Assembly (NCBI GenBank): GCA_049423385.1 | Contig: JBMSQQ010000047.1 | Coordinates: 1-26,812, forward strand | Source of the DNA: Silvanigrellaceae bacterium | GTDB lineage: Bacteria > Bdellovibrionota_B > Oligoflexia > Silvanigrellales > Silvanigrellaceae | Length of the DNA: 26,812 nucleotides | Direction of reading: 5' to 3' | Shown: in pieces, positions 4,433 to 26,812 of the stretch | Layout of the letters: every line of letters starts with the position of its first letter | How positions within the stretch are numbered: the first letter of the stretch is position 1 | The notes under the pieces: model-generated | Seen by the model: the letters and a program-made list of their open reading frames with translations, nothing else | Told to the model about the DNA's origin: nothing | The model's database searches: none | Program-made: the position numbers and the translations under genes

Positions 4433-4951
4433 TCAGCGCAACGAGCAGGCGCTCGACGCAATACCAAACTGTCCTGTGAGTCCGGCCAAGACTTTAACTC
4501 TTTGACCAGCCGCAGCAGTTGGAAATCCAACATACACCCGGAATTTTCCACTGCCGGCCAAGGTCGCCACGATTTGAAAATCACCCTTGCCCATCGATTC
4601 TGCAACATTCTGGCCCGCAGCATCAACAACAAGCAATGCAGCATTGTTCACACTTCCAGCAGTGGAAGTCGCGACGCACAAAGTGACCAGTTCGCTGCTG
4701 GCCAAGGACGTTGTGACGTTCGCAACGGGAACTTCATTGAAGCAATAATTGTTGACAATCATCGTGGAGGGAAGATTGCCTGCACAAGCGCCTGACTCTG
4801 CCATTGTGGAAACTGGCGCACTTGCCGAGGTGAAGTTCCAGGTGAGGGTCGATTGCGAGGCAATTTGCGACTGCACGCCGTTGTCGTGTTGTCCACACGC
4901 AGTCGAAAGTACAGTTGATGCCAGAAGAGACCTCAGCAAAAGCGCCTTCAT
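4433..4951 (-). CDS. Small lipoprotein of unknown function (beta-rich, several Cys)
   Basis: MKALLLRSLLASTVLSTAC lipobox; GGAG RBS about 7 nt before ATG 4951. No recognisable family motif. Confidence 0.7.
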   Translation of the reverse strand: MKALLLRSLLASTVLSTACGQHDNGVQSQIASQSTLTWNFTSASAPVSTMAESGACAGNLPSTMIVNNYCFNEVPVANVTTSLASSELVTLCVATSTAGSVNNAALLVVDAAGQNVAESMGKGDFQIVATLAGSGKFRVYVGFPTAAAGQRVKVLAGLTGQFGIASSACSLR

Positions 4952-5106
4952 ATTCATACTCCGCAAGAGAAAGTCTGCTTGTAATTCAAGCACGAAGGCA
5001 GCGGAGTTATCCTAATGACACACGCCTGACAATAGAAAAATGAATATGATTACCGAATATTATATTGATTGATTGGCCAATCTGCCTCGCCTGCCACCAG
5101 GTCGCT

Positions 5107-8536: not shown

Positions 8537-9808
8537 TCAGCGTACACAGGAAGCAACGGATTCACGACCAACACAACCTGTCATCCATTCACGAACCTTG
8601 GAATGGGCCGGTGTGCAATCTGCAATCACCTGGTGTGCCGGACCACGAACTACGGCCCCAAGTGCAACGGCAATAGAAACGCTGTTTCCCGAACCATCGT
8701 AAGGAACCCACAAGGTTCCGCCTGCCGCCGCAACACGTCCAGCCTGCAAGCCAGGAATCGGACCGTGAAATGACATCTTCGACTTCAGCTCTGCTTCGTC
8801 AAATACAAACATTGGATTCAGGTAGCTCGATGGAGCAGGTGCGTTACCTGCATAAAATGCGGGTGCGGAATCCACGGACACCGAACTGAATGCAACCTCT
8901 TTTTTGGTCTGGACATCGCTGATTTTGGCTGCGAATCCGAGGATGTACTGCTCATTTGCGGCCAAGGCAGTGCCATTGGAATTGGCTTTCCGCCAAATGA
9001 CGTCAACGGCACCACTTGTTCCACAGCTGTAGATACGCTCATGGCGGAATTGAGCGTCATAGCTCGCCGGCCTTCCAACGGGTCGAAGGTCGAGTGGGGT
9101 TGACGATGAATTTGAAGCTGGAGTTGGAGCGGCGCCTGGCTTGTTTGCTGCAGAGGAGACAGGACCTCTGTCACCCTTGAATCCATGAGAACCATCGGCA
9201 ACGAGATAGCTCTTCATTCTCTCCCGTACAATATCGCTCACCGGTTGGCACTTGAATTCAAGGGTTTTGCCTTCGCTCGTGATCACGAAATAGCGGTTGG
9301 CAAACGCACCGGCGTCTTTGCTTTTTGGTATCGCGAGCGTTGCACCAGTGACATCATTGAATTTGTAATCAGCGCCATTGATGCGTTGAAATCCCCAACC
9401 CGATTTCAGTTCGTCTTGCGGATATTGCAGAGAATAACCAATGTAGCTCATCACCGGGAACGATTCGGAAGGTTTGAGTTCCGGTGTCCGGTAGCGTGGC
9501 TCATCGATTGTGGAAACACTTCGGAATTCAAACTTTTGCCCATTGGTGCTCTCGAGTGAACCGGCAAAACCAAGAATGTACGGAGTCACACTTTCACCGT
9601 TGGAACGCTTCATGCGCCAGACGAAATCGAATCCTCCGGCTTCCTTGCCCTTGGCATCCTTGCAAACCGTGAAGCGAGTCACTTCGAATTGTTGAGCAAA
9701 TGCAGTATCTCCGGCCGATTGCATTCCCGAGTTGAACGTCCGTGGCTTGCAACCCACAAAAACTGCTCCAGAGACAATCAAAAAGCTGAGTGAAGACTTC
9801 AATTTCAC
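8537..9808 (-). CDS. Lipoprotein of unknown function with two tandem homologous domains
   Basis: GTG 9808 follows GGGGAG. Lipobox FVGC-KPRTFN. The two halves share motifs (VWR/IWR..SNG, YILGFA, SVS, ELKS, TL.[IV]P, C.P....VRE.M) and are separated by a Pro/Ser/Ala linker. Confidence 0.8.
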   Translation of the reverse strand: MKLKSSLSFLIVSGAVFVGCKPRTFNSGMQSAGDTAFAQQFEVTRFTVCKDAKGKEAGGFDFVWRMKRSNGESVTPYILGFAGSLESTNGQKFEFRSVSTIDEPRYRTPELKPSESFPVMSYIGYSLQYPQDELKSGWGFQRINGADYKFNDVTGATLAIPKSKDAGAFANRYFVITSEGKTLEFKCQPVSDIVRERMKSYLVADGSHGFKGDRGPVSSAANKPGAAPTPASNSSSTPLDLRPVGRPASYDAQFRHERIYSCGTSGAVDVIWRKANSNGTALAANEQYILGFAAKISDVQTKKEVAFSSVSVDSAPAFYAGNAPAPSSYLNPMFVFDEAELKSKMSFHGPIPGLQAGRVAAAGGTLWVPYDGSGNSVSIAVALGAVVRGPAHQVIADCTPAHSKVREWMTGCVGRESVASCVR

Positions 9809-10039
9809 AAGCACTCCCCTGAATATTGAATTTGATTTATGAATCGAGACCGGCTCGGAAAGTCTATTGCGAAGGAAGGCAAATCTCGAGTCGAAAAGGA
9901 AATCCGCCAAAAAATTGAACGCCAATGGCGACCTTTTCAATTTGGATGCGAATTTGACCCACTCATTCTCGCAAGCTAATCCTGATATGCTTTGACTTCC
10001 CAAGCGAAGTCGGTTTCATGACAAAAACGGAGCATAAAA

Positions 10040-12640: not shown

Positions 12641-12720
12641 TTTCAGCATCTTGAAGGCAATTGCGACAACCCGGATTCTGTGCGAGGACAGCTCTCTTGA
12701 AAATCAGGGGGAGTGCCCAA

Positions 12721-13989
12721 ATGTACAGATCGCATCGTTCACGCAAGTCTTTTGCCGCACAATGGCTCTCAGCCGCAATGTTGATTGCATTTTTTTCAGC
12801 CTTTGCATCGTCGCTGACTGCGTTTGCGGCCGAAAAAAACCCATTGGTCAACAACTTTGCCGATCTCCTCACAGGCATGTTCGACAGTTCATCACAGGCC
12901 ATTGACGACTCCGAATACCTTGATGTCACGGTTCACCACTGTGCCATCACCGTGAACAACCTGCCGCGCGACAAGCGCAGTGGACGATTCCTTGCGTTGC
13001 GTCAATCGGTGAGCACCTCGGATTCCCCCTACCGCGTGCGTGTTCTGAGAATATTCGCAGGCGAAAACAGCGACGTTGTCAGGGTATCAAGCTACGGAAC
13101 CATGGAAGGTATCAATCTTTCAGACGTCTGCTTCAAGCCTGAAAATGAGCGGATGATTGGCTTTGCACAACTCGCAGAGGAAAAGTGCACGACTGAATCG
13201 CACTATGAAAACGGCCGTTTTGTGGGCGGAACAACGGGTGAAGGTTGCCCGAGTTCGCGCGCAGGTGCAGTCCGCATGACCAGCGAAATCACCCTCGATG
13301 GCAAAGGAATGACCACATGGGATCGCGGCTGGAATGCAGCGGGCCAGGTGGTGTGGGGCCCCGAAAAAGGTCCGTACCGTTTCGAACGCGTCACTGCGCA
13401 GGATGTGCGTCTTGCCCAACTCGCATCATTTTTTTCGGGAAGCTTCTCCAATGCAGAACAGGTGGCTCAAGATCCGAAAAACTTTATTCCTGTTTCATAT
13501 CAATTCTGCCAAATCGATGCCGCCCAAAATCCGTTGCGGCCTTTCACACGGCTGATGCTTGCGCAACAAACAGTCAGCACTCCCGCACGCACCATCCAGC
13601 GCAACCGAGTCTACGAATTTTTCCGCAATGCTGATGGCAAAATCGGCATCCGCACCAATCCCTTCGAAGAAAGCAAAGTGCCGGTTGACGTTTGCCAACG
13701 TGACCTTGCGGAACGTCGAATGATTGCCGACGAGGCACTCGCGCAAAAGGATTCCTGCGTATTGAGTTTCGAATGGAATGAGGCACAGGAAGCGTTCACA
13801 GGAAGCACACCTGCGGAGGGATGCCCAAGCAACTTTCAAGGTGCGGTGAAATTCACTTTGGAGGAAGTCATCAAGGACGGCCTCATTTCCCCATGGGAAA
13901 GATGGTTCAACGCACAGGGTGAACAGGTTGCAGGTTCCAAGGTTGGTCCTTACATCTACAAGCGCATCAGCAAGACAGTCAATCAATAA
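12721..13989 (+). CDS. Exported protein with two tandem CpcT/CpeT (T-type bilin lyase-like) domains
   Basis: ATG 12721 follows GGGGGAG; signal peptide ends AFA. Domain 1: G.FDSSSQA, PYRVRV, GC, WDRGWNAAGQVVWGPEKGPYRF. Domain 2: GSFSNAEQ, QRNRV, GC, WERWFNAQGEQVAGSKVGPYIY. Confidence 0.82.
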   Translation: MYRSHRSRKSFAAQWLSAAMLIAFFSAFASSLTAFAAEKNPLVNNFADLLTGMFDSSSQAIDDSEYLDVTVHHCAITVNNLPRDKRSGRFLALRQSVSTSDSPYRVRVLRIFAGENSDVVRVSSYGTMEGINLSDVCFKPENERMIGFAQLAEEKCTTESHYENGRFVGGTTGEGCPSSRAGAVRMTSEITLDGKGMTTWDRGWNAAGQVVWGPEKGPYRFERVTAQDVRLAQLASFFSGSFSNAEQVAQDPKNFIPVSYQFCQIDAAQNPLRPFTRLMLAQQTVSTPARTIQRNRVYEFFRNADGKIGIRTNPFEESKVPVDVCQRDLAERRMIADEALAQKDSCVLSFEWNEAQEAFTGSTPAEGCPSNFQGAVKFTLEEVIKDGLISPWERWFNAQGEQVAGSKVGPYIYKRISKTVNQ

Positions 13990-14711: not shown

Positions 14712-14884
14712 GATTCAAATCTCCACATATGGGATCCGGGTGCCGCGACTCAGCCGGACTAACAGCATTCAACTCCACCGACAAGTCAGGTTGCGCACGT
14801 TGTCGAATCCTTGAACACCAGGCCGTCCCTTCAACTCCATTGATTTTCGCCACTTCGCTCGCAGCAGCGGGTGGATTTGCAGAG

Positions 14885-14900
14885 TGGCACGAATCCTGCA
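14885..14900 (+). promoter_or_regulatory. Putative sigma54 (-24/-12) promoter for the M48 peptidase operon
   Basis: TGGCACGAATCCTGCA versus the consensus TGGCACG-N4-TTGCW, with correct GG-N10-GC spacing; 50 nt upstream of ATG 14951. Confidence 0.65.
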
Positions 14901-14950
14901 TCCGGGTGGCGTCTAGACGCGAAGCTGCGTCCTGCAAAGGAGAGTTTTTT

Positions 14951-15835
14951 ATGAAAATCCAACGACATGGAATGCTTTTGTCCTCAATCCCATTGTTTGC
15001 CGCAGCTTTCGGTGCGCTTGTTGCAACCGCGTGCGGAGCAAGTGCAGAGCAGCCCGAGGCAACGACCCAGGAATGGGGCACTTCTGTGCAGGCAGGACAG
15101 GCTGAAGCAGAAAAGCTGCGCAACTTTACTCTTGAAGACGAATACAAATACGGAGCCGAACTCGACGCGGCAATCAAGGACCCTGCCCGCGCCAATGAAA
15201 CCGGCGTGACAATCTCCACACTCGAAAATCATCCATCGGTTGCATACATCAACCGCATTGGCCAGCGACTCGCCGCAGCCTCTGATCGGCCCGACATCGT
15301 CTTCAAATTCCAGGTCGTGAAGGAAGACACCGTGAATGCCTTTGCGACCATGGGTGGCTACGTTTACATGCACACGGGCCTGATCAAATCGGCAACCAAC
15401 GAAGCACAGGTTGCTGGCGTCATGGCTCACGAGCTTTCACACATCACGCACAAGCACGCGCTGCAATCCATGGCAAGTCAAGCCGTGTATGGCGGTTGGG
15501 TAAAGGGAGTTGGTGGCTTGGGAGGCCTCATCATCAACCTTGGTTCTGCCGTTTTGTTCAGACTTCCAGGCAGCCGTGCGTTTGAGTTTGAAGCAGATGG
15601 AACAGGTTTCGAAATCATGCGCCGCGCGGGTTATCCAGCAGATCAAATGGTCGAATTCTTCCGCAACGTGCTTGCAAAGGGCGATCCCAACGACGGCAAG
15701 CGTCGTGATTGGCTTTCAACTCACCCCGACACATCGCGGCGCATCAATGCGCTCAATCAACGCTTGACTCCGGGCGACAGCAGGGGACTTGGTTTGAACG
15801 CCTCCGAGCATGCACAAATTATAAATTCGCTTTGA
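14951..15835 (+). CDS. M48-family zinc metallopeptidase lipoprotein (BepA/LoiP-like)
   Basis: Motifs VNAFATMGGYVY, AHELSH (HExxH), SRAFEFEAD and WLSTHP; lipobox ATAC. ATG 14951 follows AAGGAG, so it is preferred over 14729. Confidence 0.93.
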   Translation: MKIQRHGMLLSSIPLFAAAFGALVATACGASAEQPEATTQEWGTSVQAGQAEAEKLRNFTLEDEYKYGAELDAAIKDPARANETGVTISTLENHPSVAYINRIGQRLAAASDRPDIVFKFQVVKEDTVNAFATMGGYVYMHTGLIKSATNEAQVAGVMAHELSHITHKHALQSMASQAVYGGWVKGVGGLGGLIINLGSAVLFRLPGSRAFEFEADGTGFEIMRRAGYPADQMVEFFRNVLAKGDPNDGKRRDWLSTHPDTSRRINALNQRLTPGDSRGLGLNASEHAQIINSL

Positions 15836-15866: not shown

Positions 15867-16961
15867 ATGAGAGCTTTGGCAAGAACCCGAATTTCGCTCA
15901 TGCTTTCCTGCGGCAGCACACTGCTGATGTTGGCCTGCGGAAATCGAAATGATTCACTTGACCAAAGCTCCTCTGTGTCGTCGCCCCAGTCAAGCGCTTC
16001 AGCAAAAGGTTTTGCAATCATCGACGAACAGATCACGCAAACAATTGCGGAACGAATGACAGCAAAATGCGCTGAGTTGAAGTTTGAAAAATCTTCGGAT
16101 CTTGAAGGTTGCAGTGCCGCATCCGCTACGCTGGCAGCGGAACTTGATTTTTCATACATCCGTCGCAACGATGGCAACTCAGCCTTTGTTTTCTTCAGCA
16201 AAAAACTGCATGCACTGATGGCGGATCCTCAGGTTGGAACCTACCTGAATGATCTGCAGATCGCTTGTCTGGATGCAATCTATTCCGGAAAAACATTCAA
16301 TCTGTGGGATTTCACGCTTGCCAAAAGCGGTGGTCGAAGCGAGGTTGCCCTCGAACGCATCGCAGTCTTGTTTCAGGATGGTTCCCAAACTGCGGCCCAG
16401 AAAAAATTTCTTCTCGTTGAACAACATCCCATGGCATTTGTGTTGGGGCAAACTCTGGATTTGCTCGACCAGGGACTCGAACGTGGGCAGATCGAAGCGT
16501 ACCCAAAGCCGATCCAATTGAGCCGAACCGCACATTACCATTATTACGTTCCCCGCTTTCTCGCCCAACAACTCTCCAGAAAAAGCCACTCGCAGAAGAT
16601 GTCTGCGCTGGTGCCATTCGTTTTCAATTCCGTTTACGAGCTTCGACAAATCCAGAAAGCGCAAAATTCGGGATTGCCAGCGTTTCACAAAGCCGTGACA
16701 GTGGATCGCGATGAAAACCCGGCTCTCAAGGAATTGGTCGCCAAGTGGAATCGCTTCGACGAACTCTACAGCGACTTGCTGGACCATCTTTCTGCACCTC
16801 TGATTGGTTTCACCCCGCAAGGTCAAAAAGAAAATCTTGAAGACCTGTTCCTTGGGTACCTGGGTGGGCGCGATGGAAGCCGAGGGGGAGGGAATATGAC
16901 CCTGGATGAATTCGTTGCGGACTTTGCCAAGGATCCGGTTCTTTTTTTCAAGTCCAAATAA
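15867..16961 (+). CDS. Lipoprotein of unknown function (largely helical)
   Basis: GAGGAGG RBS; lipobox LLMLAC; Ser-rich linker; 364-aa ORF 31 nt downstream of the M48 gene. Confidence 0.8.
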   Translation: MRALARTRISLMLSCGSTLLMLACGNRNDSLDQSSSVSSPQSSASAKGFAIIDEQITQTIAERMTAKCAELKFEKSSDLEGCSAASATLAAELDFSYIRRNDGNSAFVFFSKKLHALMADPQVGTYLNDLQIACLDAIYSGKTFNLWDFTLAKSGGRSEVALERIAVLFQDGSQTAAQKKFLLVEQHPMAFVLGQTLDLLDQGLERGQIEAYPKPIQLSRTAHYHYYVPRFLAQQLSRKSHSQKMSALVPFVFNSVYELRQIQKAQNSGLPAFHKAVTVDRDENPALKELVAKWNRFDELYSDLLDHLSAPLIGFTPQGQKENLEDLFLGYLGGRDGSRGGGNMTLDEFVADFAKDPVLFFKSK

Positions 16962-17000: not shown

Positions 17001-17028
17001 TCAACTCCAGCCCCAACAACTCCGATAT
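17001..17028 (+). promoter_or_regulatory. Possible sigma28/FliA-type promoter of the trypsin-like lipoprotein gene
   Basis: TCAA-N16-TCCGATAT. If real, translation must start downstream of 17027. Confidence 0.4.
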
Positions 17029-17053
17029 GCCATTTGGATTGTTGGGGGCCATG

Positions 17054-18703
17054 ATGAGTCGTCGCGCAATGCCAGTTTCAACCAGAATATTTTCACGAGG
17101 CTTTTACTTCCTCGCGACGGTTGGAATTTTGGTGGGATGTGGAGGTGCGACTTCGACCGCCCGGGTTCAAGGCGGTTCGAAATGTGGCCAACAACCTGTT
17201 GTGGGTGGCGGAGGAACGGCCGGCGGCTCCACAGGGTTGACCATGCTCAATTCCAATCTCGATCTCGCAAGCAACCTGGCGAGCGTGTCCGGTGATGCGG
17301 GCGTGGGAACCGGCTATCTCGACATCAGCACCAAATCCGAAACGGGCGTGGCAGAGGGACGGCGTTGCACCATGCACGTACGACCCATCGAGGGCACAGA
17401 CTCGGTTGTTCGAATCTGGACGGCAGGACACTGTTTCTTCGACCCCCAAACACCCAAGTTCCGCAATTCCACGTACAAGGCACAAATCTATTACAACGGT
17501 GGTTATTTCTCTGCGGGCGTGGTTTTGGATGGAATGGCCGAGCTTGCGACCTTTTCTCAAGGTTTCGCGACTGCATTGAACTTGCCGGGCCTCGACACCG
17601 CATTGCCGGACATAAAAGGAGCGGTATTTTCGGCCCTGCCTTCACAAACGGGACAGATTTGTCTCGACAATGAATCCGCATTTGTGACGAACAAGATTTC
17701 CTCGGGCAACAGAAAAATGGTCGCGTGTTTTGCGCGCAGCGAGTTGCGTGGTTTTAGAACCACTCTGACGCTCGACAGCACCACCAAACCGTATATGACC
17801 GAAGTCCTCAAAATCTTGCGTGCCAGAGAGAAGGACGCGTTCGCAAAAATGGACGCCAAGACGGCTCTTCAAATCAAATCGTATATTGACATTCATTTTG
17901 CCGAAAGACGCAGGACTACCGACCTGCGGAGTTTGGCATTCAGTCTCAACAAACAGATTTGCGAGATCTTCAAGACCAACCCAACCTCACCGTTATTGGC
18001 AGGTTTGCCGACAGGATCATGCCAAACCGTGCCACTGATATCCGCGACTTCCACCATCCGCGATCTGGTTATTGCAAAATTCAAGGATCCAACAACTGTA
18101 CCTGCAACTGACAACAAAATGATGGAAGTGTATTACGACGATGGAACAACCAGCCTGGATGTCCTCAAGACAAAAACAGCAGGCTGCAACACCATGAACA
18201 TTGATTCACTGCCAGCGAACAACGATCTCATGACCCCTTGCGACATGACATTTGTTGCAGACAAACTGTGGCAAAAATGGGTTGACAGTGGTGCGCAGCC
18301 TGTCGTGTCGGGCACTTTGTTTGATGCAAACCTGTTCGGATTCAATCCCGACAGTTATTTTGCACTCCACACGAACGCCGCACAAACAGCTTTGCAGAAA
18401 TCCAGTGGCTTGCGCGGCAAGGCAAGAATATTGCCATTGAACAACAGCACGGTGTTGAATTTTGGAACCGCCGTTTCCGGCAGCTCGAACAACATCATGC
18501 ACATCAATCTCGACTCAGCAGCGCAGAGCTTGTTCCCGACAAAAGGCGACAGTGGTTCGATGCTTTCCATCTTTGGCTACTTTCCTGTGGGCCTTCTTTC
18601 CACAGTGGATGGAGAAAGAACATCCGGTGGCGCAAGCGTGACACCACTTCCGGAAGTCGGCTCCGAAGACGAGACGACAATCAATTCAGCCAGTGGCTGC
18701 TGA
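17054..18703 (+). CDS. Trypsin/chymotrypsin-like (clan PA) serine protease lipoprotein with a large internal insertion
   Basis: Lipobox LVGC; RCT...IWTAGHCF (His motif with Cys pair); KGDSGSML (Ser motif) followed by PVGLLS. Start uncertain (17027/17051/17054/17069). Confidence 0.7.
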   Translation: MSRRAMPVSTRIFSRGFYFLATVGILVGCGGATSTARVQGGSKCGQQPVVGGGGTAGGSTGLTMLNSNLDLASNLASVSGDAGVGTGYLDISTKSETGVAEGRRCTMHVRPIEGTDSVVRIWTAGHCFFDPQTPKFRNSTYKAQIYYNGGYFSAGVVLDGMAELATFSQGFATALNLPGLDTALPDIKGAVFSALPSQTGQICLDNESAFVTNKISSGNRKMVACFARSELRGFRTTLTLDSTTKPYMTEVLKILRAREKDAFAKMDAKTALQIKSYIDIHFAERRRTTDLRSLAFSLNKQICEIFKTNPTSPLLAGLPTGSCQTVPLISATSTIRDLVIAKFKDPTTVPATDNKMMEVYYDDGTTSLDVLKTKTAGCNTMNIDSLPANNDLMTPCDMTFVADKLWQKWVDSGAQPVVSGTLFDANLFGFNPDSYFALHTNAAQTALQKSSGLRGKARILPLNNSTVLNFGTAVSGSSNNIMHINLDSAAQSLFPTKGDSGSMLSIFGYFPVGLLSTVDGERTSGGASVTPLPEVGSEDETTINSASGC

Positions 18704-19453
18704 AGAGTCCTGGAGTCTGAGCATTTTCAAGACCATTGATTCCAGCTTCGACAACATCAAGTGAATCAACAGACCAAAACAGGACACCACCACGAGTGCC
18801 GCAAACAGACGTGCGGTTTCCTGATTGTATGCCGCCATGAGCAGGCGATAGGCCAAACCCAACTCCTGACCGCCGGTTCCTGCCACGAACTCAGCTCCAA
18901 CAGCTCCAACCAATGCAAGACCGCCGGTGATGCGCAATCCATTCACGATATAGGGCAAGGCAGAAGGGAGTTCGAGGTGCCAAAGGCGCTGCCAAACATT
19001 CGCCCTGTACAGCTTGAAAATACGCTGCAGGTTGGCATCACTCTTGCCCAGACCCGCAAGAGTTGAACTGATCATCGGATACACACACACGAGCCAGGCA
19101 CAGGTCATGAGTGCAAGAAAGGCATTGTTGCGAAACCAGATGATCAGCAACGGCGCAATGGAAACTACAGGCGTCGTTTGCAGGAGGATGGTGAATGGAA
19201 AAACACTTTGGCGAAAACCACGCGAGAGATGCGCCAGCAATCCAATTGTGAAGCCTGTCAGCAACGCAAGTACAAAAGCTCCAAGAGTGAGCTTGAACGT
19301 GAAAAGGAACGACTGCATCAAGGGGATAGCATCTTTTACAAGTGCCGCAGCAACCGCAGATGGAGCCGGCAAAAGCCATGAGGGTAAAGAAAGAAAGCGA
19401 CATGCAATTTCCCAGATCGCAACCATAAAAACGACCAACGCAACACTACGCAT
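18686..19453 (-). CDS. ABC transporter permease, NitT/TauT/SsuC family
   Basis: Motifs WLLPAPSAV, LQTTPVVSIAPLLIIWF, LELPSALPY and GAVGAEF; several TM segments. Confidence 0.92.
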   Translation of the reverse strand: MRSVALVVFMVAIWEIACRFLSLPSWLLPAPSAVAAALVKDAIPLMQSFLFTFKLTLGAFVLALLTGFTIGLLAHLSRGFRQSVFPFTILLQTTPVVSIAPLLIIWFRNNAFLALMTCAWLVCVYPMISSTLAGLGKSDANLQRIFKLYRANVWQRLWHLELPSALPYIVNGLRITGGLALVGAVGAEFVAGTGGQELGLAYRLLMAAYNQETARLFAALVVVSCFGLLIHLMLSKLESMVLKMLRLQDSSAATG

Positions 19454-20225
19454 GTGAAACTCCCTCCAGGGCAGCTTCGCTCCAAGCCTGGCGGACTTCG
19501 TCCTTGAGTCTTTGAACGCGTTCGACGAGCAGATGCGAAGCGAAACTCACCGACTCCGACCCTCCAGCCTGGAAATCGTAATACCTGAGCAATTGTCCGG
19601 ATCGGGAAAGAACAAGAATCCGATTACACATCCGCACCGCTTCTTCGATGTTGTGGGTCACAAGAACATAAGCAATTGCACTTTCACGCTGAAGACCCAG
19701 TATGTCGTCCTGCAGCCGGCCACGGGTGACGTCGTCCAATGCAGAGAAAGGCTCATCAAGCAGAATAAGCTGAGGTGAATTCACAAGGGCACGCGCCAAC
19801 GCCACTCGCATCTTCATACCCCCCGAAAGCTCGTCGGGATAAGAATTGGCACGGTCGGCAAGACCCACCCGATGCAAAAGCGAAGTCAGCAGTTCATCCT
19901 GCTTGCTTTCTTTTTTCGCCAGAATGTCGCCAACCAGCTCAAGGTTTTCGCGCACCGTCTTCCAGGGAATCAACGAGGGTTCCTGAAAGACAAATGAAAT
20001 TTTTTTTTCTGAAAGCTTGCGATTCACACGCCCAGAGGTCGGTGAAAGCAGGCCGGAGATGAGATTCAAAAGCGTGCTCTTGCCGCACCCGGAGGGTCCA
20101 AGAAAGGCTACGCGATCGCCGCTGGCCACCTGCAGATTGAAATTTCTGATAACCTCGCGACCGGAGAACCGCAATCCAACAGAATCACACTCCACGAGCA
20201 GTTGTCGGTTTTCTGTTGAGCTCAT
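19446..20225 (-). CDS. ABC transporter ATP-binding protein, NitT/TauT/SsuB family
   Basis: Walker A GPSGCGKST, VFQEPSLIPW, signature LSGGM, Walker B LLDEPFSALD and H-loop VTH. Confidence 0.94.
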   Translation of the reverse strand: MSSTENRQLLVECDSVGLRFSGREVIRNFNLQVASGDRVAFLGPSGCGKSTLLNLISGLLSPTSGRVNRKLSEKKISFVFQEPSLIPWKTVRENLELVGDILAKKESKQDELLTSLLHRVGLADRANSYPDELSGGMKMRVALARALVNSPQLILLDEPFSALDDVTRGRLQDDILGLQRESAIAYVLVTHNIEEAVRMCNRILVLSRSGQLLRYYDFQAGGSESVSFASHLLVERVQRLKDEVRQAWSEAALEGVSHA

Positions 20226-20237
20226 TGGCTCTCCTTT

Positions 20238-21323
20238 TCAAGCGAGTGACAGACCCAAACCCACGCCGCCAGGCAAGACGAGTTCCGAATTGCCCCGGTG
20301 GTAAGGACTTTGCACGGTTGGCCTGCTGCGCAGAAAAAAAGGCGTATCGAGATCACACCATTGAATGGCACCCGTCCCGCAAACCGCGTGCAGCGAGGCA
20401 GTCATGGCGATCTCGCTTTCCACCATCCCACCAATCATCAATGGGATGGAACATCTGCGAGCCACCTCGGCAATCAACAATGATTCCCTCACACCCGACT
20501 TCATGAATTTCAAGTTGATCATGCGTGCGCATTTATCGTTGACAACCTTGATGGCATCACTGAGAGTCTTGACAGTCTCGTCGGCACACACAGGAATGGG
20601 CAACATTTCGCTGAGGCGGGCCATTCCTGCAAAATCGTCTTCCGGGAGAGGTTGTTCGAAAAACAAGGGATCGATTTTTCGCGCCACCAATTCAAAAACC
20701 AGACGCTTTGCAGATTCGACCTGGAATCCCTGATTGCCATCGAGGCTGATTCGCAGATTTTTTCCTGAACAATTCATCAACGCCATGATACGCGCAACAT
20801 CGTCTTCAATTGGCCCGCCACCCACCTTGACCTTGACGTAGGGAAAGTTGTGCGACGAGAAACAATTCCAGAAATGTTCGACATCTGTTGCAGGAATGCA
20901 GGGAAGAGTGATGTCGGTGATTGCAGAGCTCAAGCCTGCTCTTCCCCAAAGCGCCCACAATGGACAGCCCAGCTGACGAGCGTGGAGATCCCACAATGCA
21001 ATTTCAACTCCCGTGCGGGCCGAAGGAGCATGACTGAACGAGTGCCAGAGTTGATTGTGAAGTTTTTCAAGGGCGGCTGCGGGAGACAGGCCCATCAATA
21101 AACTTGTCAACTCCTGCGACGCAAGCAAGGCGATTTCCTGGGTGTCTCCGGTCAACACGGGAAAGGGAGCAGCCTCACCTATTCCCACGCCACCCTCAGC
21201 GTCTGTGAGCGCAATCAGAACGTTTGCAACTTTTTCAACAGCTCCCTTGGAGATGTTGAAGGGCAAATGCAAATCGGATTCGAATGCAGCAACTCGACAA
21301 TCTGATAACGGCAACAATTTCAT
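20238..21323 (-). CDS. Dipeptide epimerase (L-Ala-D/L-Glu epimerase-like, enolase superfamily MLE subgroup)
   Basis: GIGEAAP; KVKVG (KxK); metal ligands DGNQG, EQP and ADE; NLKFMKSG; DLD (DxD typical of dipeptide epimerases). Confidence 0.88.
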   Translation of the reverse strand: MKLLPLSDCRVAAFESDLHLPFNISKGAVEKVANVLIALTDAEGGVGIGEAAPFPVLTGDTQEIALLASQELTSLLMGLSPAAALEKLHNQLWHSFSHAPSARTGVEIALWDLHARQLGCPLWALWGRAGLSSAITDITLPCIPATDVEHFWNCFSSHNFPYVKVKVGGGPIEDDVARIMALMNCSGKNLRISLDGNQGFQVESAKRLVFELVARKIDPLFFEQPLPEDDFAGMARLSEMLPIPVCADETVKTLSDAIKVVNDKCARMINLKFMKSGVRESLLIAEVARRCSIPLMIGGMVESEIAMTASLHAVCGTGAIQWCDLDTPFFLRSRPTVQSPYHRGNSELVLPGGVGLGLSLA

Positions 21324-21427: not shown

Positions 21428-22708
21428 ATGAATCAATCGACCGACACTGCCCGCGAAAAGTTGATTCTACTCCTGCTCACTGCAATTCAGTTTGCCCACG
21501 TTGTTGACTTCATGGTGATGATGCCGCTGGGTCCACAGCTGATGAGAATTTTCGCAATCTCGCCTGCCCAGTTCGGACAGATCGTTTCTGCCTACGGAAT
21601 CAGTTCTGGAATCGCCGGACTTGTTGTGGGTCCGATGATTGACAAATACGACAGAAAAATTTTCATGCTTTTTTGTCTGCTCGGTTTGACCGCCGGAACC
21701 CTTCTCTGCGCGATTGCACCAACGGCAGACGTTCTTTTTCTCGCCCGCTGTATTGCCGGATTTTTTGGTGGAATTCTGGGTGGACTTTCGCAAGCGATTA
21801 TTTCTGATGTCTTCCCCGCCGAACGGCGTGGATTTGCAATCAGCAGAGTGATGACGGCATTTTCCATTGCCTCCGTGCTCGGTGTTCCTGCAAGCCTCGC
21901 GCTCGCGAACAAGTTCAGTTGGCACACCCCGTTTGTTCTGGTCACGGTGTTGCTCGCTCTTTTGATGCTCATCTCGTTGTGGCGTTTTCCCAGTCTCAAG
22001 GGGCATATCGACCCATCTTCAACTTTTCTGGGCAGGTTGAAGCAATTGACCCACCTCGTTGTCGAGAAGCCTGCCGTCATCGGCTTCCTGACCACATTCT
22101 TTATTATTTTCGGTCAATTCATGGTGATTCCATTCATCAGTCCATTCCTGGTCAAGAACCTTGGTTTTGCCGAGACGCAACTCCCGCTCCTTTATTTTCT
22201 CGGTGGATTTGCGAGCATCTTCACCATGCCGCTGATTGGAAAGTGGACTGACAAATTCGGCGCGTCGCGGATCTTTCCTTTTGGAGTCGTGATTTCAATC
22301 GTGCCCTTGTTCACTTTGACCCATCTCACAAGCCACAACCCCGTGATCATCCTTTCCGTCACGACCTTGTTCATGATTTGCATGGGTGGCCGCATGGTGC
22401 CATTTTCATCTTTGCTGACAACAGCCGTTGAACCCAGAAAGCGTGGAGCATTCCTGAGCCTCAACGCTTCAGTTCAGTCGCTCGCACAGGGCGGGGCAGC
22501 CTTGTTCACCGCATCGCTGGTTCACGAAGCGGCCGATGGCAGCTTGCAGGGATATGCGACCTCGGGATGGATTGCGGCAATCTTCAGCGTGCTGACGATT
22601 GTACTTGGACTTCAAATCGCAAAAGCCGGAGCGCGTTCAGTACAACAAACAGACTTGAAAACGCCATCGCAGCCGCTGCCCACATCGGAGTCAGTCGACC
22701 CGTCATAG
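21428..22708 (+). CDS. MFS transporter (DHA1/AraJ-like)
   Basis: About 12 hydrophobic segments. Motifs DFMVMMPLGP, IDKYDRK (motif A), ISDVFPAERRG and GKWTDKFG. Confidence 0.92.
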   Translation: MNQSTDTAREKLILLLLTAIQFAHVVDFMVMMPLGPQLMRIFAISPAQFGQIVSAYGISSGIAGLVVGPMIDKYDRKIFMLFCLLGLTAGTLLCAIAPTADVLFLARCIAGFFGGILGGLSQAIISDVFPAERRGFAISRVMTAFSIASVLGVPASLALANKFSWHTPFVLVTVLLALLMLISLWRFPSLKGHIDPSSTFLGRLKQLTHLVVEKPAVIGFLTTFFIIFGQFMVIPFISPFLVKNLGFAETQLPLLYFLGGFASIFTMPLIGKWTDKFGASRIFPFGVVISIVPLFTLTHLTSHNPVIILSVTTLFMICMGGRMVPFSSLLTTAVEPRKRGAFLSLNASVQSLAQGGAALFTASLVHEAADGSLQGYATSGWIAAIFSVLTIVLGLQIAKAGARSVQQTDLKTPSQPLPTSESVDPS

Positions 22709-24776
22709 CCAGGGGCATGAGAACGATGTTGTAACCAAACGCCCAGGCCAGATTCTGGCGAATGTTTCGAAACGTGGCTTTTGACAAAGATATGGCATTC
22801 AGCACACCCGAAAGTCCGCTGTCCTTGAGAGTCAAAGAGGCTGTTTGTTGTGCTGCATCGGTTCCATTCCCCATGGCAATCCCAACATCCGCGGCAGCAA
22901 GCGCAGGTGCATCATTGACACCATCGCCCAACATCGCAACCACCGAGCCTTGGGAGCGGAGTTGAGTCACAAGGGCCGCCTTCATTTGTGGGGTTTGTTG
23001 AGCATGAAATTCAATTTCCAATGACATCCCCAACGGACCAACCACATCCGCTTGATCACCAGACGCAAGTATACCCGTCACTCCCGACTGCTTGAGCGAT
23101 GCAACGACCCGACCCGCATCTGCCCTCAGGGCATCACTCAATGACCATGCCACGACAGGCTCGTCGTTGAGGGTACAGACAACCCAGGAGTTGCCATCAA
23201 CAATCGGAAGCAGCTCTCTCTGCTTCTCCGTCGCGCGACCCACCTGCAGTTGTTTGTCGCCTTCGGTTGTTGTCCAAAGAGCGCTCATTCCCTGCCCAAC
23301 CGATTCGTGAATCTGGCTGAGCTGCCCTTCAATTTGAGTCGGCAACTGCCGGCTTTTCATTTTTGCAACCAACGCCATTGCAACCGGATGTTGTGAGCGC
23401 TGCTCGAGCAACAAAACAGCATTGAAAATGTTTGCACGCTCTGCTTCAGAATGCTCCTGCCGCGAAATCCATTTTTCTTCAACCACCGAAAGTTTGCCTT
23501 CGGTGAGCGTTCCCGTTTTGTCGAAAACGATGGTTTGCACAGCCTGAAGAGATTCAAGTGCAGCAAGGTCGCGAAACAAAATACCCGCCTTTGCGGCGCG
23601 ACCCGTTGCGATTGCAATAGCAATCGGGGTGGCCAAACCCAATGCACACGGACACGCCACCACCAAAACAGAAACGGCTGCGTTGAGACTCGCCGGGAAG
23701 TCTTGATGCAAAACGAATTGCCAGACAAGAAATGTGAGCAGGCTCAACACAAGCACAACAGGAACGAAAACGGCCGATACCCTGTCCGCGAGTCGTTGAA
23801 TTGGCGCCTTGGAGATTTGAGTCCGCTCAACAAATTTGATGATTTCACCCAGGCGCGTTTGCGCTCCCAAAGCCTTTGCCTCGATTTTGACGACTCCCAC
23901 CTTGTTGAGGGAACCGGCAACAACACTGTCACCCACCCGCTTGATGACCGGACGACTTTCGCCAGTGAGGAGCGATTCATCGACTTCTGTTTGTCCATCC
24001 AAAACCAAGCCATCTGCAGCGAAGCGTTCACCAACGCGGGTCAGAAGGATGTCGCCGGATTTTACGAACCGCACATCCAGAGATTCCATCTCCGAATCAC
24101 TACCCTTGGACAGCCTGCAAGCCATGCGGGGCTGAAGTTGCAGCAAGGCACCCAACGATGATGTGGCGCGCCAGGTCATGCGTTGTTCGAGGTATTTTCC
24201 GATCAGGACGAAAGCAACGATCGCCGCTGCCGTTTCAAAATAAACGAACTCGGAACCTTGCGAAGCCTGAACGCAGGACCAAACAAAGGAGATGCCCGCA
24301 CCCAGGGCAACCAGCGTGTCCATGTTTGCCGCCCGGTGACGCAAGAGCGCGGCTGCCTTGCGAAAAAAAACGAATCCAGGTCCTGCAAGCAAAACGAACG
24401 TGAGCAGACCAGTCAGCAATCGAACCGCAGGCAACGCTGCAAGCGAATGGACCATTCCAAGAACAATGACAGGCAATCCCAGAACAGCAGAAAGAAGCAT
24501 CCTCTTTCGAGCTGTATCCTGCTCGCGTCGTTGACTCTCTTCGAGTGAAAAGCCCTGACCCAGAGGCTTGGCATGATAGCCGATGGTTTCAATTTTTTTC
24601 TGTATTTCAAAATCCGGCAATTCACTTTGGACAATCGCGGTGTGGGTGGCAAAATTCACCGTCGCTCGCTGTATTCCGGGGGTACTCGACAAGCCACGCT
24701 CAATGCGGCCTGCACAGCCTGCACAGCTCATTCCTTGAACGGAAAATTCTTTAACGTGGCTTTCGTTTGTATTCAT
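22584..24776 (-). CDS. copA: Copper-translocating P1B-type ATPase
   Basis: HMA GMSCAGC, TGES, ACPCALGLATP, DKTGT, HP and GDGVNDAP. YN and MAFSS transmembrane ligands indicate the Cu(I) P1B-1 type. Alternative GTG start at 24788. Confidence 0.95.
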   Translation of the reverse strand: MNTNESHVKEFSVQGMSCAGCAGRIERGLSSTPGIQRATVNFATHTAIVQSELPDFEIQKKIETIGYHAKPLGQGFSLEESQRREQDTARKRMLLSAVLGLPVIVLGMVHSLAALPAVRLLTGLLTFVLLAGPGFVFFRKAAALLRHRAANMDTLVALGAGISFVWSCVQASQGSEFVYFETAAAIVAFVLIGKYLEQRMTWRATSSLGALLQLQPRMACRLSKGSDSEMESLDVRFVKSGDILLTRVGERFAADGLVLDGQTEVDESLLTGESRPVIKRVGDSVVAGSLNKVGVVKIEAKALGAQTRLGEIIKFVERTQISKAPIQRLADRVSAVFVPVVLVLSLLTFLVWQFVLHQDFPASLNAAVSVLVVACPCALGLATPIAIAIATGRAAKAGILFRDLAALESLQAVQTIVFDKTGTLTEGKLSVVEEKWISRQEHSEAERANIFNAVLLLEQRSQHPVAMALVAKMKSRQLPTQIEGQLSQIHESVGQGMSALWTTTEGDKQLQVGRATEKQRELLPIVDGNSWVVCTLNDEPVVAWSLSDALRADAGRVVASLKQSGVTGILASGDQADVVGPLGMSLEIEFHAQQTPQMKAALVTQLRSQGSVVAMLGDGVNDAPALAAADVGIAMGNGTDAAQQTASLTLKDSGLSGVLNAISLSKATFRNIRQNLAWAFGYNIVLMPLAMTGRLTPMWAAAAMAFSSLFVVLNALRLLRFEVQVQSSAR

Positions 24777-24848
24777 GTCCGTGCGCACCTATACTGCCAA
24801 GTCCCGAATGAACAGATGGCAGTGGGTCTCTAACACAGGGAACTTGGG

Positions 24849-26462
24849 ATGTTAAAGCTTGTCGCGACGATTTTGATGGTTCCATTGCTTGTTTCGACCG
24901 GCTGCCTACGCTCGAAATTGGCTGAATCCGACAAAATTTCCAAATTTCATGACGCACAAAACCATCGCCTCAATGCGACTCCCTGGTTCCGCGTCGACAC
25001 CAATCGTGATGGAAATCTTTCCACGGCGGATGACTCCGATGATGATTGGTCATGGCAGGGACGCGGTGCATTCGTTCTGCCGAACCTCGATGATGATGAT
25101 CGGGATGGATCAACCGACTGCTCCGACGACTCCGTCAACACGGCCGCCGACGAAAAGGATCTCACTCCTGTGATTGTCGGTTGGAACGATGCAGATGCAG
25201 CGTATCTTGAAAAGTTCAAGTTCCGGTTGTCTGCCTCTTCCACATCCGCGCCGGTCAAATGGTTTCTGCGCACCGGAAGCGAATGGAAAAAGATGGACAA
25301 CACTTTTTCACTCGCCGAGTTGCAGGGAGAAAATACCCACAAGGCCATGCTTGGATTGGAGGCTTGTGCCTTTGCTTCAAAAAGCTGGGATGGATTCATG
25401 AACATCCAGCTTGAAGATGATGTTGGCGAGACCATTCAATCGTCACCCGTCAGGGTCTCTCCTTTCCTGATGATACCCAATACGGAAAGAATGGAAACGT
25501 TGTTCATCGCACGCGACAACACAGGAAAATACGGCAACACACGGATGCTGTTTGAACTGTTCCTGCCATCGCTGCTCGGCAGTGTCGCGGTGAAAACCTA
25601 CAGCACGGATGCCTGGCAAGAGATGTGGATGCAGGACACCATGGAGATTGGCTATGCGGAGTCACCCACGAGCAGGATGCATGTTGTGTTGAATGCACCA
25701 CGCGGCCAAGATAGGTTCGGCCGCACACGATTGGCTCCAGACGTTGGATATATTGAAGTGGCCCAACCGCGGGGACAGAACAGTCCCGGTGACGGATGGC
25801 TCGATTGGTTTGGCAACCTTGAAGTCAGCCCGCCCACCGCAAAATTTCCCAATGGAAGGGTTTACTACGGAATGAATCCAGAGACAGGCGACAGCCTGCA
25901 TCCCGAGGTTGTTTCCTTTCTCGAGGCACAGGAACTGCAAAAGCCCGTCGCCCTGGATACAGGCTGGCTGTTTATAAAACACGTCGATGAAATGCTGACC
26001 TTTTGGCCCGACGGCAGGAACAATGGGTTTGTTGCCCTGATGCCAAGCCCTGCTCTGGCAGGACAAATTCTGGGACAAGAACTCGATGACTACAACACTG
26101 AACTTCAGATGCGCATTCGCCGCACGGTTGACGGCGTCAGCGAGAAGTCATCCGTTGCAGAAATTTTTGGTCTTGAGGCAGGCCAGCTGAAGATGTTGCC
26201 ACTGCTTTACGATGCAGGGGAACATGGTGCAACCGGACGATGGTCGAATCCCGTCAATTCGGTGGTCATCAACAAGACGTTGCTTTACGGCAGAACGGGG
26301 GTGCCGAAGGCGGCTCACGAGTTCATCAAAAAGACGGTGCGGGAGAGCTCGATGCTCCCACTCGGAGTTGAAGACAGCGCCTATCAGCCACGCCTGGGCA
26401 ACGTTCATTGTGCAACAAACTCCAAGCGAAATCCCCCCAAACGCCCTTTTTGGCACTGGTAA
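24849..26462 (+). CDS. Protein-arginine deiminase (PAD family), lipoprotein
   Basis: WMQDTMEIGY, LDWFGNLEVSPP, GWLFIKHVDE and GNVHCATN correspond to the PAD4 catalytic Asp/His/Asp/Cys motifs. Acidic Ca-type segments DTNRDG and NLDDDDRDG. Lipobox STGC. Confidence 0.93.
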   Translation: MLKLVATILMVPLLVSTGCLRSKLAESDKISKFHDAQNHRLNATPWFRVDTNRDGNLSTADDSDDDWSWQGRGAFVLPNLDDDDRDGSTDCSDDSVNTAADEKDLTPVIVGWNDADAAYLEKFKFRLSASSTSAPVKWFLRTGSEWKKMDNTFSLAELQGENTHKAMLGLEACAFASKSWDGFMNIQLEDDVGETIQSSPVRVSPFLMIPNTERMETLFIARDNTGKYGNTRMLFELFLPSLLGSVAVKTYSTDAWQEMWMQDTMEIGYAESPTSRMHVVLNAPRGQDRFGRTRLAPDVGYIEVAQPRGQNSPGDGWLDWFGNLEVSPPTAKFPNGRVYYGMNPETGDSLHPEVVSFLEAQELQKPVALDTGWLFIKHVDEMLTFWPDGRNNGFVALMPSPALAGQILGQELDDYNTELQMRIRRTVDGVSEKSSVAEIFGLEAGQLKMLPLLYDAGEHGATGRWSNPVNSVVINKTLLYGRTGVPKAAHEFIKKTVRESSMLPLGVEDSAYQPRLGNVHCATNSKRNPPKRPFWHW

Positions 26463-26556: not shown

Positions 26557-26603
26557 CCACAACTGGAGGGAATTATTCCTTCTTCAGGTGCGAGGGTGCG
26601 GCG

Positions 26604-26812
26604 TTGTTGTTCGAACGAAAAAAGCAGGGCGGATTTTCGCTGCTGGAACTGATGGTGGGGCTGACGGTTCTGCTCACCGTGGTTGGATTTTCGTTCAAGA
26701 ATCTTGTGGGCCTGCGCAAAAGCATGAACCGCATCACAACCACGGGACCACATCTTTATTTTGAGAGCTTTGCCGTTTCGCGCCTCAAACTCTATTTCGC
26801 CAAGATGATGCA
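26604..26812 (+). CDS. Type IV prepilin / pseudopilin-like protein, N-terminal part; runs off the right edge
   Basis: Absent from the ORF track. TTG 26604, after GAGGG, gives MLFERKKQGG|FSLLELMVGLTVLLTVVGFSFKNLVGLRKSMNR..., i.e. a basic leader, G|F cleavage site, Glu+5 and a hydrophobic helix. The frame is open to the window end. Confidence 0.88.
   Translation, partial: MLFERKKQGGFSLLELMVGLTVLLTVVGFSFKNLVGLRKSMNRITTTGPHLYFESFAVSRLKLYFAKMM

What the first reader, a model, noticed from the sequence alone, without database searches (positions are those of the whole stretch)
24849..26462. Lipid-anchored, vertebrate/cyanobacterial-type protein-arginine deiminase
Seen: lipobox STGC and a complete catalytic set (WMQD, HVDE, VHC), with segments very close to human PAD4 as I recall them (WMQDEMEIGY, LDSFGNLEVSPP, GEVHCGTN). 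It also has acidic Ca-binding-like stretches and apparently lacks the first N-terminal Ig-like domain. Known: Ca-dependent PADs are patchily distributed (vertebrates, cyanobacteria, actinobacteria, some fungi) and are distinct from Porphyromonas PPAD and agmatine deiminases. Inference: envelope or extracellular citrullination of prey/host proteins, cationic antimicrobial peptides, Arg-rich polymers or the cell's own surface proteins.
Basis: partly seen in the sequence, partly recalled or inferred. Interest (0 to 1): 0.72.

Follow-up and report, generated by a model that had tools for sequence, protein, structure and literature searches.

The report
Exported bacterial citrullinating enzyme, divergent branch
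This gene from an uncultured aquatic bacterium encodes a distant relative of the human enzymes that convert protein arginine to citrulline; it is predicted to be lipid-anchored outside the cytoplasm and belongs to a little-studied bacterial branch that has lost one calcium site, but no activity or substrate has been measured.

Summary
The ORF is real (537 aa). It is a PADI-family protein with PAD_M and PAD domains, no PAD_N, the human PAD fold and all four catalytic residues (D263, H378, D380, C521). The lipoprotein signal is well supported: 13 of 14 close homologues pass a lipobox rule, against 0 of 120 hits of a cyanobacterial/animal-type query, and the genome has Lgt, LspA and LolA. The label 'vertebrate/cyanobacterial-type' is wrong in the strict sense. 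Identity to those enzymes is 25-29%, and grouping with them is rejected (AU p=1.5e-38). The gene belongs to a separate bacterial branch that keeps calcium sites 1, 3, 4 and 5, has lost site 2, and carries fixed Trp/Lys/Asn changes near the active site. It is an accessory gene (7 of 13 genomes of a genus inferred to be Silvanigrellaceae), with empty sites in relatives. Bacterial PADIs are published. This scan noted exported PADs before on other DNA, mostly with a HEAT-repeat partner; that partner was not found here. Best reading: an envelope enzyme that likely deiminates incoming arginine-containing peptides. Activity, calcium dependence, substrate and expression are untested, and 'prey' is unsupported.

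The parts
24849..26462 (+). Two-domain PADI-family gene, 537 aa (P0001)
24837..24841 (+). Purine-rich ribosome-binding-like site; a similar CA(C/T)AGGA stretch precedes the ATG in 5 of 5 relatives displayed. In-frame stop at 24831-24833
24849..24905 (+). Predicted lipoprotein signal (Lys3, hydrophobic helix, S-T-G-C); Cys19 codon at 24903-24905
24906..24971 (+). Low-confidence, non-conserved linker (residues 20-41), as expected for a lipoprotein tether
   Evidence: pLDDT<50 for 18-41
24990..25412 (+). PAD_M Ig-like domain (residues 48-188) with Ca3/4/5 ligands N79, D81, D83, D90, D93, D101, D104, E171 and a clade-conserved Cys91/Cys173 pair
25449..26459 (+). Catalytic pentein domain (residues 201-537), about 28 residues shorter than animal PADs between the HxD motif and the N588 equivalent (90 vs 118)
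25626..25646 (+). W260, Q262, D263, T264, E266 = PAD4 W347, Q349 (Ca1), D350 (catalytic), E351 (Ca2 ligand, lost), E353 (Ca1)
25692..25709 (+). N282-A-P-R285-G-Q: Ca2 ligands D369/N373 and R374 lost, R372 kept
25797..25823 (+). W317 and W320 (PAD4 G403, S406 positions; clade-specific) and Ca1 ligand E325 (E411)
25974..25988 (+). I376, K377 (clade-specific; Gly in other PADs), catalytic H378 and D380
26409..26411 (+). Catalytic Cys521 (PAD4 C645)
22584..24788 (-). Neighbour (context only): copper-type P1B ATPase, divergent from the PAD gene, starts 60-72 nt away
26601..26812 (+). Neighbour (context only): prepilin-like ORF cut by the contig end, first of a three-gene cluster in relatives

Best explanation
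The gene encodes a two-domain protein-arginine deiminase homologue with an intact catalytic set that is predicted to be lipid-anchored outside the cytoplasm and likely converts arginine in incoming peptides to citrulline and ammonia. Shown: domains, catalytic residues, conserved lipoprotein-type N-terminus, clade position and loss of the Ca2 ligands. Predicted: the PAD fold. Inferred from family knowledge: Sec export, Lgt/LspA processing at Cys19 and tethering through the 20-41 linker; D263/D380 hold the guanidinium, W260/I376 clamp the side chain, Cys521 attacks and His378 assists hydrolysis. Inferred: Ca1 and Ca3-5 fill with environmental calcium once the protein is exported, and without Ca2 the enzyme is less tightly switched than PAD4. 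Most speculative step: the substrates are foreign arginine-containing peptides (cationic peptides or protein digests), selected by a groove narrowed by the clade's Trp/Lys changes, which gives charge neutralisation and some nitrogen. That would explain an accessory gene with no protective partner.
For: Family and fold: Pfam PAD + PAD_M; AF2 pLDDT 88.8; Foldseek human PAD4 E 7.6e-41, TMq 0.79; VIA-align PADI6 Z 33.9 (459 aligned, rmsd 2.7) against Z 20-22 for agmatine deiminases and PPAD. Catalytic D, H, D, C are invariant in 25 of 25 aligned relatives. Of 13 strain variants inside the ORF, 10 are synonymous. Export: lipobox rule in 13 of 14 close homologues, 28 of 120 wider hits, 84 of 120 Oligoflexus/myxobacterial-type hits and 0 of 120 clade Ai-query hits; Lgt, LspA, LolA in the genome; Cys91 and Cys173 in 14 of 14 close homologues, each next to a Ca5 ligand, a possible disulfide (inferred). 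Free arginine is already covered: a separate arginine deiminase is in 13 of 13 genus genomes and the one in this genome shows no signal-like N-terminus. Envelope and peptide context in relatives: 12 of 34 long representatives chosen for length carry PG_binding_1 or OmpA; one same-clade protein is fused to D,D-carboxypeptidase and PG-binding domains (P0397); an OPT peptide transporter and an NlpC/P60 fusion neighbour some same-clade genes.
Against: No member of this clade is known to me to have been assayed; the tested bacterial enzyme (Cyanothece/Rippkaea 8801) is only 26.7% identical. R374, which binds the substrate backbone in PAD4 (recalled), is lost. The PAD4 Ca2 triple mutant keeps only about 4% of kcat/Km (PMC5445078), so losing Ca2 could mean a weaker enzyme, not a freer one. 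The fusion and neighbour hints are few: 11 of the 12 envelope fusions come from other PAD branches, the set was chosen by length, and no neighbour is shared across the clade. In the window the flanking genes are also adjacent in genomes without the PAD, so they say nothing about substrate. No carbamate kinase was found in this 90.6%-complete genome.
Confidence: 0.45

Rival explanations
1. It is an exported deiminase of C-terminal arginine or of a small guanidino compound (for example protease products ending in Arg, or beta-Asp-Arg from cyanophycin), not of internal peptidyl-arginine. The invariant Lys377 beside the catalytic His would bind a carboxylate.
For: Coordinated clade changes: no Glu at E351 in 120 of 120; Trp at S406 in 103 of 120 (17 unscored); Lys at G470 in 102 of 120 (4 Gln, 14 unscored); Asn at E642 in 115 of 120. 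R374 is lost. No HEAT-repeat partner, which would fit low self-toxicity.
Against: Fold and sequence are far closer to PADI than to PPAD, agmatine deiminase or ADI. R372 is kept, and 2 of 4 animal PADs in the alignment also have Gly at R374. Free arginine is served by a separate ADI. The direction of the Lys377 side chain could not be measured.
Confidence: 0.22
2. It citrullinates the cell's own envelope proteins, for example the pilin-like proteins encoded downstream, to change surface charge or adhesion.
For: A prepilin-like three-gene cluster follows on the same strand in the window and in 4 of 6 relatives.
Against: The cluster is present in 5 of 5 PAD-negative genus genomes examined, and 2 of 6 PAD loci lack it downstream. 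An AT-rich spacer of about 140 nt separates the genes and similar spacer sequence persists at the empty site in G010. The promoter/terminator scan was uninformative.
Confidence: 0.13
3. It is an offensive enzyme delivered to prey or a eukaryotic host (for example in outer-membrane vesicles) that citrullinates target proteins.
For: The family includes a Daphnia pathogen (PMC7308576, passages). Lipoprotein PADs are common among hits named Oligoflexus, Nannocystis, Enhygromyxa and Kofleriaceae. Patchy presence fits a conflict gene.
Against: Cultured relatives are listed as non-predatory. No immunity-like or partner gene lies next to it. The polymorphic-toxin survey PMC3482391 has no mention of deiminase or citrullination in the 300,000 of 357,715 characters held.
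Confidence: 0.1
4. It is a catalytically weak or inactive calcium-binding envelope protein.
For: Ca2 ligands are lost, and the PAD4 Ca2 mutant is strongly impaired. The lid region is shortened.
Against: All four catalytic residues are invariant across relatives down to about 34% identity, and variants are mostly synonymous.
Confidence: 0.05

Closest known systems
Human PAD1-4 and three-domain cyanobacterial PADIs (clade Ai of Cummings et al., PMC8826395)
   Same: PAD_M + pentein fold, catalytic Asp/His/Asp/Cys, Ca1, Ca3, Ca4 and Ca5 ligands, the D388/D389 residue and an R-V-x-P-[FW]-x-M-x-P-N connector.
   Different: No PAD_N; lipoprotein signal instead (0 of 120 Ai-query hits pass the rule); Ca2 ligands and R374 lost; W317, W320, K377, N518; shorter lid; 25-29% identity against 44.7% between cyanobacterial and catfish PAD; grouping rejected.
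Two-domain bacterial/fungal PADIs (actinobacterial-fungal type and 'bacterial outgroup' sequences of PMC8826395)
   Same: Two-domain architecture and loss of Ca2. One sequence with this clade's IKHVD motif (A0A2T1DDG0_9CYAN) is in that paper's supplement, so the branch was sampled.
   Different: No His-rich connector; separate branch from the three actinobacterial sequences used. The paper's main text has no occurrence of signal peptide, secreted or lipoprotein. No fungal sequence was available to me.
Exported PAD + HEAT-repeat partner module of Oligoflexus/myxobacteria/Planctomycetes
   Same: Lipoprotein-type PADI outside the cytoplasm.
   Different: That clade keeps E351/D369 and has a HEAT gene directly downstream in 5 of 7 loci examined (2 cut by contig ends). 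No such partner was found in this genome or three PAD-positive congeners.
Porphyromonas PPAD and agmatine deiminases (PF04371)
   Same: Pentein fold and Cys/His/Asp chemistry; PPAD is also an exported citrullinating enzyme (recalled).
   Different: No PF04371 match; Z 20-22 over the catalytic domain only; no PAD_M domain in those enzymes (PMC8826395).

Membership tests
PADI family (PF03068) | PAD_C domain above the Pfam cut-off | tested here: met
   152.8 bits vs cut-off 25
PADI family (PF03068) | PAD_M Ig-like domain | tested here: met
   40.5 bits vs 24.8; structural match to PADI6 begins at chain residue 122
PADI family (PF03068) | Catalytic Asp, His, Asp, Cys | tested here: met
   D263, H378, D380, C521 align with PAD4 D350, H471, D473, C645 (roles recalled)
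PADI family (PF03068) | Ca1, Ca3 and Ca5 ligands | tested here: met
   Ligand list from PMC5445078; all present
PADI family (PF03068) | Calcium-dependent deimination of peptidyl-arginine | not testable with these tools
   Needs an assay
Clade Ai (animal + late cyanobacterial, three-domain) | PAD_N domain | tested here: not met
   No Pfam trace; only 41 residues precede PAD_M and an in-frame stop lies 6 codons upstream
Clade Ai (animal + late cyanobacterial, three-domain) | Ca2 site (E351, D369, N373) | tested here: not met
   T264, N282, Gly/gap; Glu at E351 in 0 of 120 clade hits
Clade Ai (animal + late cyanobacterial, three-domain) | Ca4 residue D388/D389 and animal-type PAD_M-PAD_C connector | tested here: met
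   D298 and residues 202-211; not exclusive to clade Ai in my alignment
Clade Ai (animal + late cyanobacterial, three-domain) | Phylogenetic placement | tested here: not met
   AU p=1.5e-38 for genus clade + Ai; p=0.001 for the whole branch + Ai; p=0.26 when two further metagenomic sequences are added to the group; unrooted
Actinobacterial/fungal two-domain PADI | PAD_N absent, Ca2 absent | tested here: met
Actinobacterial/fungal two-domain PADI | His-rich connector | tested here: not met
   I-P-N at 209-211
Actinobacterial/fungal two-domain PADI | Phylogenetic placement | tested here: inconclusive
   Separate branch from 3 actinobacterial rows; no fungal rows, no root, not AU-tested
Agmatine deiminase / PPAD (PF04371) | PAD_porph match and single-domain pentein closest in fold | tested here: not met
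Bacterial lipoprotein (Sec/SPII) | Basic n-region, hydrophobic h-region, lipobox Cys | tested here: met
   Recalled PROSITE-like rule passed by 13 of 14 close homologues; 0.28% by shuffling; no SignalP available
Bacterial lipoprotein (Sec/SPII) | Lgt and LspA in the host | tested here: met
   LolA
Bacterial lipoprotein (Sec/SPII) | Actual lipidation and which membrane or face | not testable with these tools
   Needs labelling and fractionation
Exported PAD + HEAT partner module (scan notes) | HEAT-repeat gene directly downstream | tested here: not met
   Downstream gene is prepilin-like; partner profile finds 0 of 4 genus genomes, 1 of 1 positive control

The most novel reading that the evidence does not exclude
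This branch is a third PADI type: exported, free of the Ca2 switch and of the HEAT inhibitor partner, with a rebuilt Trp/Lys-lined pocket that gives a new specificity. It is spread over Silvanigrellaceae, Myxococcota, Planctomycetota, Sericytochromatia, Eremiobacteraeota and some cyanobacteria. It would be a calcium-relaxed citrullinating enzyme and would suggest that much bacterial citrullination happens at the cell envelope, with tight calcium gating a feature of the cytoplasmic lineage that entered animals.
Probability: 0.3. Interest if true: 0.7.

Novelty: new variant of a known kind. Interest (0 to 1): 0.42.

Why it matters
The function of bacterial and fungal PADIs is described as completely unknown (PMC9174705, passage). 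This protein gives a small, soluble-after-truncation test case for two open points: whether bacterial PADIs work outside the cytoplasm, and what the Ca2 site contributes, since here it is naturally absent while Ca1 and Ca3-5 are kept. It also shows that some features used to unite animal and cyanobacterial PADIs (D389, the connector) occur more widely. It does not bear directly on the origin of animal PADs, and exported bacterial PADs have turned up repeatedly in this scan.

Tried and rejected
No NCBIfam family matches. No phage record matches. A HEAT partner was not found in G000, G002, G011 or G007 or among neighbours of 11 other same-clade loci (ORFs of 150 aa or more within 2.5 kb, printed output partly cut). 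A functional link to copA or the pilin cluster was rejected: both stay adjacent without the PAD in G010 and G003, and lie in tandem in G001, G004 and G006. A hidden PAD_N upstream was rejected (in-frame stop). Contamination or misassembly was rejected: synteny with congeners, G+C 0.53 like the window, and the same stretch in another study's contigs. Expression: the only RNA run (X9) has no contig on the PAD gene, which is no evidence either way. The promoter/terminator scan was at chance level. The careful bootstrap tree did not finish, so supports are SH-aLRT only; trees are unrooted and have no fungal or human rows. The Atlas search only returned PAD clusters. Literature: nine searches listed no paper on exported or lipoprotein PADI-family enzymes in bacteria, or on the roles of G403/S406/E642; subscription journals and patents are not covered. 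The PAD2 calcium paper (Slade et al.) was not held. No complex prediction was run.

Full report
Observation. The ORF at 24849-26462 encodes 537 aa. It has a lipoprotein-type N-terminus (Cys19), a low-confidence linker (residues 18-41), PAD_M at 48-188 and PAD from 201. PAD_N and PAD_porph give no match even at E<=1, and an in-frame stop 6 codons upstream leaves no room for PAD_N. Contigs from two DNA runs of another study span copA and the whole gene with 11 substitutions each and no indels. Of the 13 listed variants inside the ORF, 10 are synonymous.

Host. The genome is 3.47 Mb and 90.6% complete. A genome of the same genus (G002 = L007) is titled 'uncultured Silvanigrella sp.' and another (L003) 'uncultured Oligoflexia bacterium', so I infer Silvanigrellaceae. 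The PAD family is found in 7 of 13 genomes of the genus, 0 of 13 of the family's other large genus, and 16 of 104 phylum genomes searched. Cultured Silvanigrella and Fluviispira are listed as non-predatory (PMC11656739, passages); a Daphnia pathogen is a close relative (PMC7308576, passages).

Family. All 27 PDB sequence hits are mammalian PADs, best 136 bits. The AF2 model (pLDDT 88.8, pTM 0.85) matches human PAD4 at E 7.6e-41, TMq 0.79. VIA-align gives PADI6 Z 33.9 over 459 residues, well above agmatine deiminases and PPAD at Z 20-22. D263, H378, D380 and C521 align with PAD4 D350, H471, D473 and C645 (roles recalled) and are invariant in 25 of 25 aligned relatives.

Not clade Ai. Cummings et al. 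(PMC8826395; I read parts 1-5 of 12 and searched main text and supplement) define a three-domain animal/cyanobacterial type and a two-domain type. I collected Ai-type sequences by a motif scan and a homology search. An Ai-type protein scores 544 bits against human PAD2. The query is 25-29% identical to cyanobacterial, amphioxus and catfish PADs, while the tested cyanobacterial enzyme is 44.7% identical to catfish PAD. Two trees (73 rows LG+G4; 42 of those rows LG+C20, quick search; SH-aLRT only, unrooted, no fungal or human rows, rows hand-picked from about 500 held) place it in a genus clade (100) inside a wider branch (97-99) apart from clade Ai, actinobacteria and an Oligoflexus/myxobacterial branch. 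AU tests on 30 rows reject genus clade + Ai (p=1.5e-38) and whole branch + Ai (p=0.001). They do not reject a larger group that also holds two metagenomic sequences (p=0.26), so deep relationships stay open. Named members of the branch include Sericytochromatia, a cyanobacterium, Myxococcota, Planctomycetota and Eremiobacteraeota. One sequence with its IKHVD motif is in the Cummings supplement.

Calcium sites and pocket. With ligands from PMC5445078 (passages): Ca1 (Q262, E266, E325), Ca3-5 (N79, D81, D83, D90, D93, D101, D104, E171) and D298 (D388) are kept. Ca2 is lost (T264, N282, Gly/gap), and so is R374. Among the 120 proteins (the query standing in for its own record), none has Glu at E351, 103 have Trp at S406 (17 unscored), 102 Lys at G470 (4 Gln, 14 unscored) and 115 Asn at E642. 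The 120 hits and the 120 have Glu in 119 and 118, Trp in none, and Lys in one and none. The lid region between HxD and N588 is 90 residues against 118 in animals. What these changes do is inferred only; the PAD4 Ca2 mutant is much less active, so the result could go either way.

Export. A recalled PROSITE-like lipobox rule is passed by 13 of 14 close homologues, and the 14th has the same Cys19. It is passed by 28 of 120, 84 of 120 and 0 of 120 of the three hit lists (metagenomic start calls are unreliable). In this genome 146 of 1,712 long ORFs pass against 9 after shuffling, so lipoproteins are common here and the rule is specific; the query's own N-terminus passes in 0.28% of shuffles. Lgt, LspA and LolA are present. 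Cys91 and Cys173 occur in 14 of 14 close homologues beside two Ca5 ligands, a possible disulfide (inference).

Context. The gene is divergent from a copper-type ATPase in 5 of 6 relatives and precedes a prepilin-like cluster in 4 of 6. In G010 and G003 these flanks meet with under 300 nt and no PAD trace; in G001, G004 and G006 they lie in tandem without it. The gene is therefore accessory and the neighbours are uninformative. Earlier scan notes describe exported PADs with a HEAT-repeat partner. I confirmed such a gene after 5 of 7 Oligoflexus-type loci (2 cut by contig ends), and found none in this genome or three PAD-positive congeners, with a positive control hit. The genus has a separate arginine deiminase (13 of 13), ArgG (12 of 13 over cut-off) and an OTCase-family gene (10 of 13 over cut-off; the family includes aspartate transcarbamylase), but no carbamate kinase was found in this genome. 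A profile search of 1.84 billion representatives found 2,602 hits at E<=0.001; 12 of 34 long ones that I chose carry PG_binding_1 or OmpA, only one of them in this branch.

Mechanism and verdict. Most likely this is an exported, lipid-tethered arginine deiminase using standard Cys/His/Asp chemistry on arginine-containing peptides that reach the envelope, with relaxed calcium gating (0.45 for the whole chain; family identity and export are each about 0.85-0.9). Rivals are C-terminal-arginine or small-molecule specificity (0.22), self-modification (0.13), offensive effector (0.10) and inactive protein (0.05). Bacterial PADIs are published and their function is unknown (PMC9174705, passages). Nine literature searches listed nothing on exported forms or on this branch's features; PMC11016909 (passages) and PMC3482391 (term search) add nothing on them. 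Verdict: new variant of a known kind, interest 0.42.

Noticed in passing
window 26601-26812 (+); L002:7702-12124: Three-gene prepilin-like cluster; the second protein (about 800 aa) ends in a Hint/Vint-like domain (PF14623, PF07591, below cut-off). Present in all genus genomes checked, in two orientations relative to copA.
   Followed up: partly
L034:2595-3578, L035:2646-3602, L071, L085, L097: PADs of Oligoflexus tunisiensis, Pseudobacteriovorax and relatives are lipoprotein-like and followed by an exported HEAT-repeat gene with two invariant arginines. Cultured strains exist, so that module is directly testable.
   Followed up: partly
alignment: Features described as exclusive to clade Ai (D389, Ca2 ligands, the connector) also occur in other bacterial branches: E351/D369 in the Oligoflexus/myxobacterial branch, D389 and the connector in this branch; 2 of 3 actinobacterial rows also align an Asp at D389, which may be a register issue.
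   Followed up: partly
P0355, P0357, P0360 (cluster includes Microcystis aeruginosa WP_149106500.1): A Microcystis-type PAD branch groups next to animal PADs at SH-aLRT 88 but is unresolved; unnamed Ai-like sequences (P0350, P0352, P0339) also fall outside the main cyanobacterial group. It may bear on the donor of animal PADs.
   Followed up: no
P0433-P0524: Many long bacterial proteins end in a PAD module behind OmpA, PG_binding_1, subtilase, amine oxidase, Ig/PKD or FG-GAP domains; many have Cys at the E351 position.
   Followed up: no
L048 (NZ_CP007513.1, about 539713-540637): Unannotated PAD-like sequence in three pieces on a Bacillus bombysepticus plasmid.
   Followed up: no
window 1608-2624, 4433-4993, 6968-8533, 8537-10003, 14729-15835, 15867-16961, 17027-18703: Several other ORFs have Cys-containing lipoprotein-like N-termini, including a subtilase, an M48 peptidase, a weak MIDAS-adhesin match and orphans.
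   Followed up: no
window 12661-13989 (+): Protein with two CpeT/CpcT (DUF1001) domains and a signal-like N-terminus in a non-cyanobacterial genome.
   Followed up: no
window 18686-21323 (-): Dipeptide-epimerase-like enolase-family gene followed by a NitT/TauT-type ABC ATPase and permease, syntenic in L002 and L003.
   Followed up: no
L028, L037, L038, L039, L029: Very divergent PAD-like genes (Pfam E 1e-25 to 6e-4) in other Oligoflexia genomes, some with lipoprotein-like N-termini; left out of the trees.
   Followed up: no
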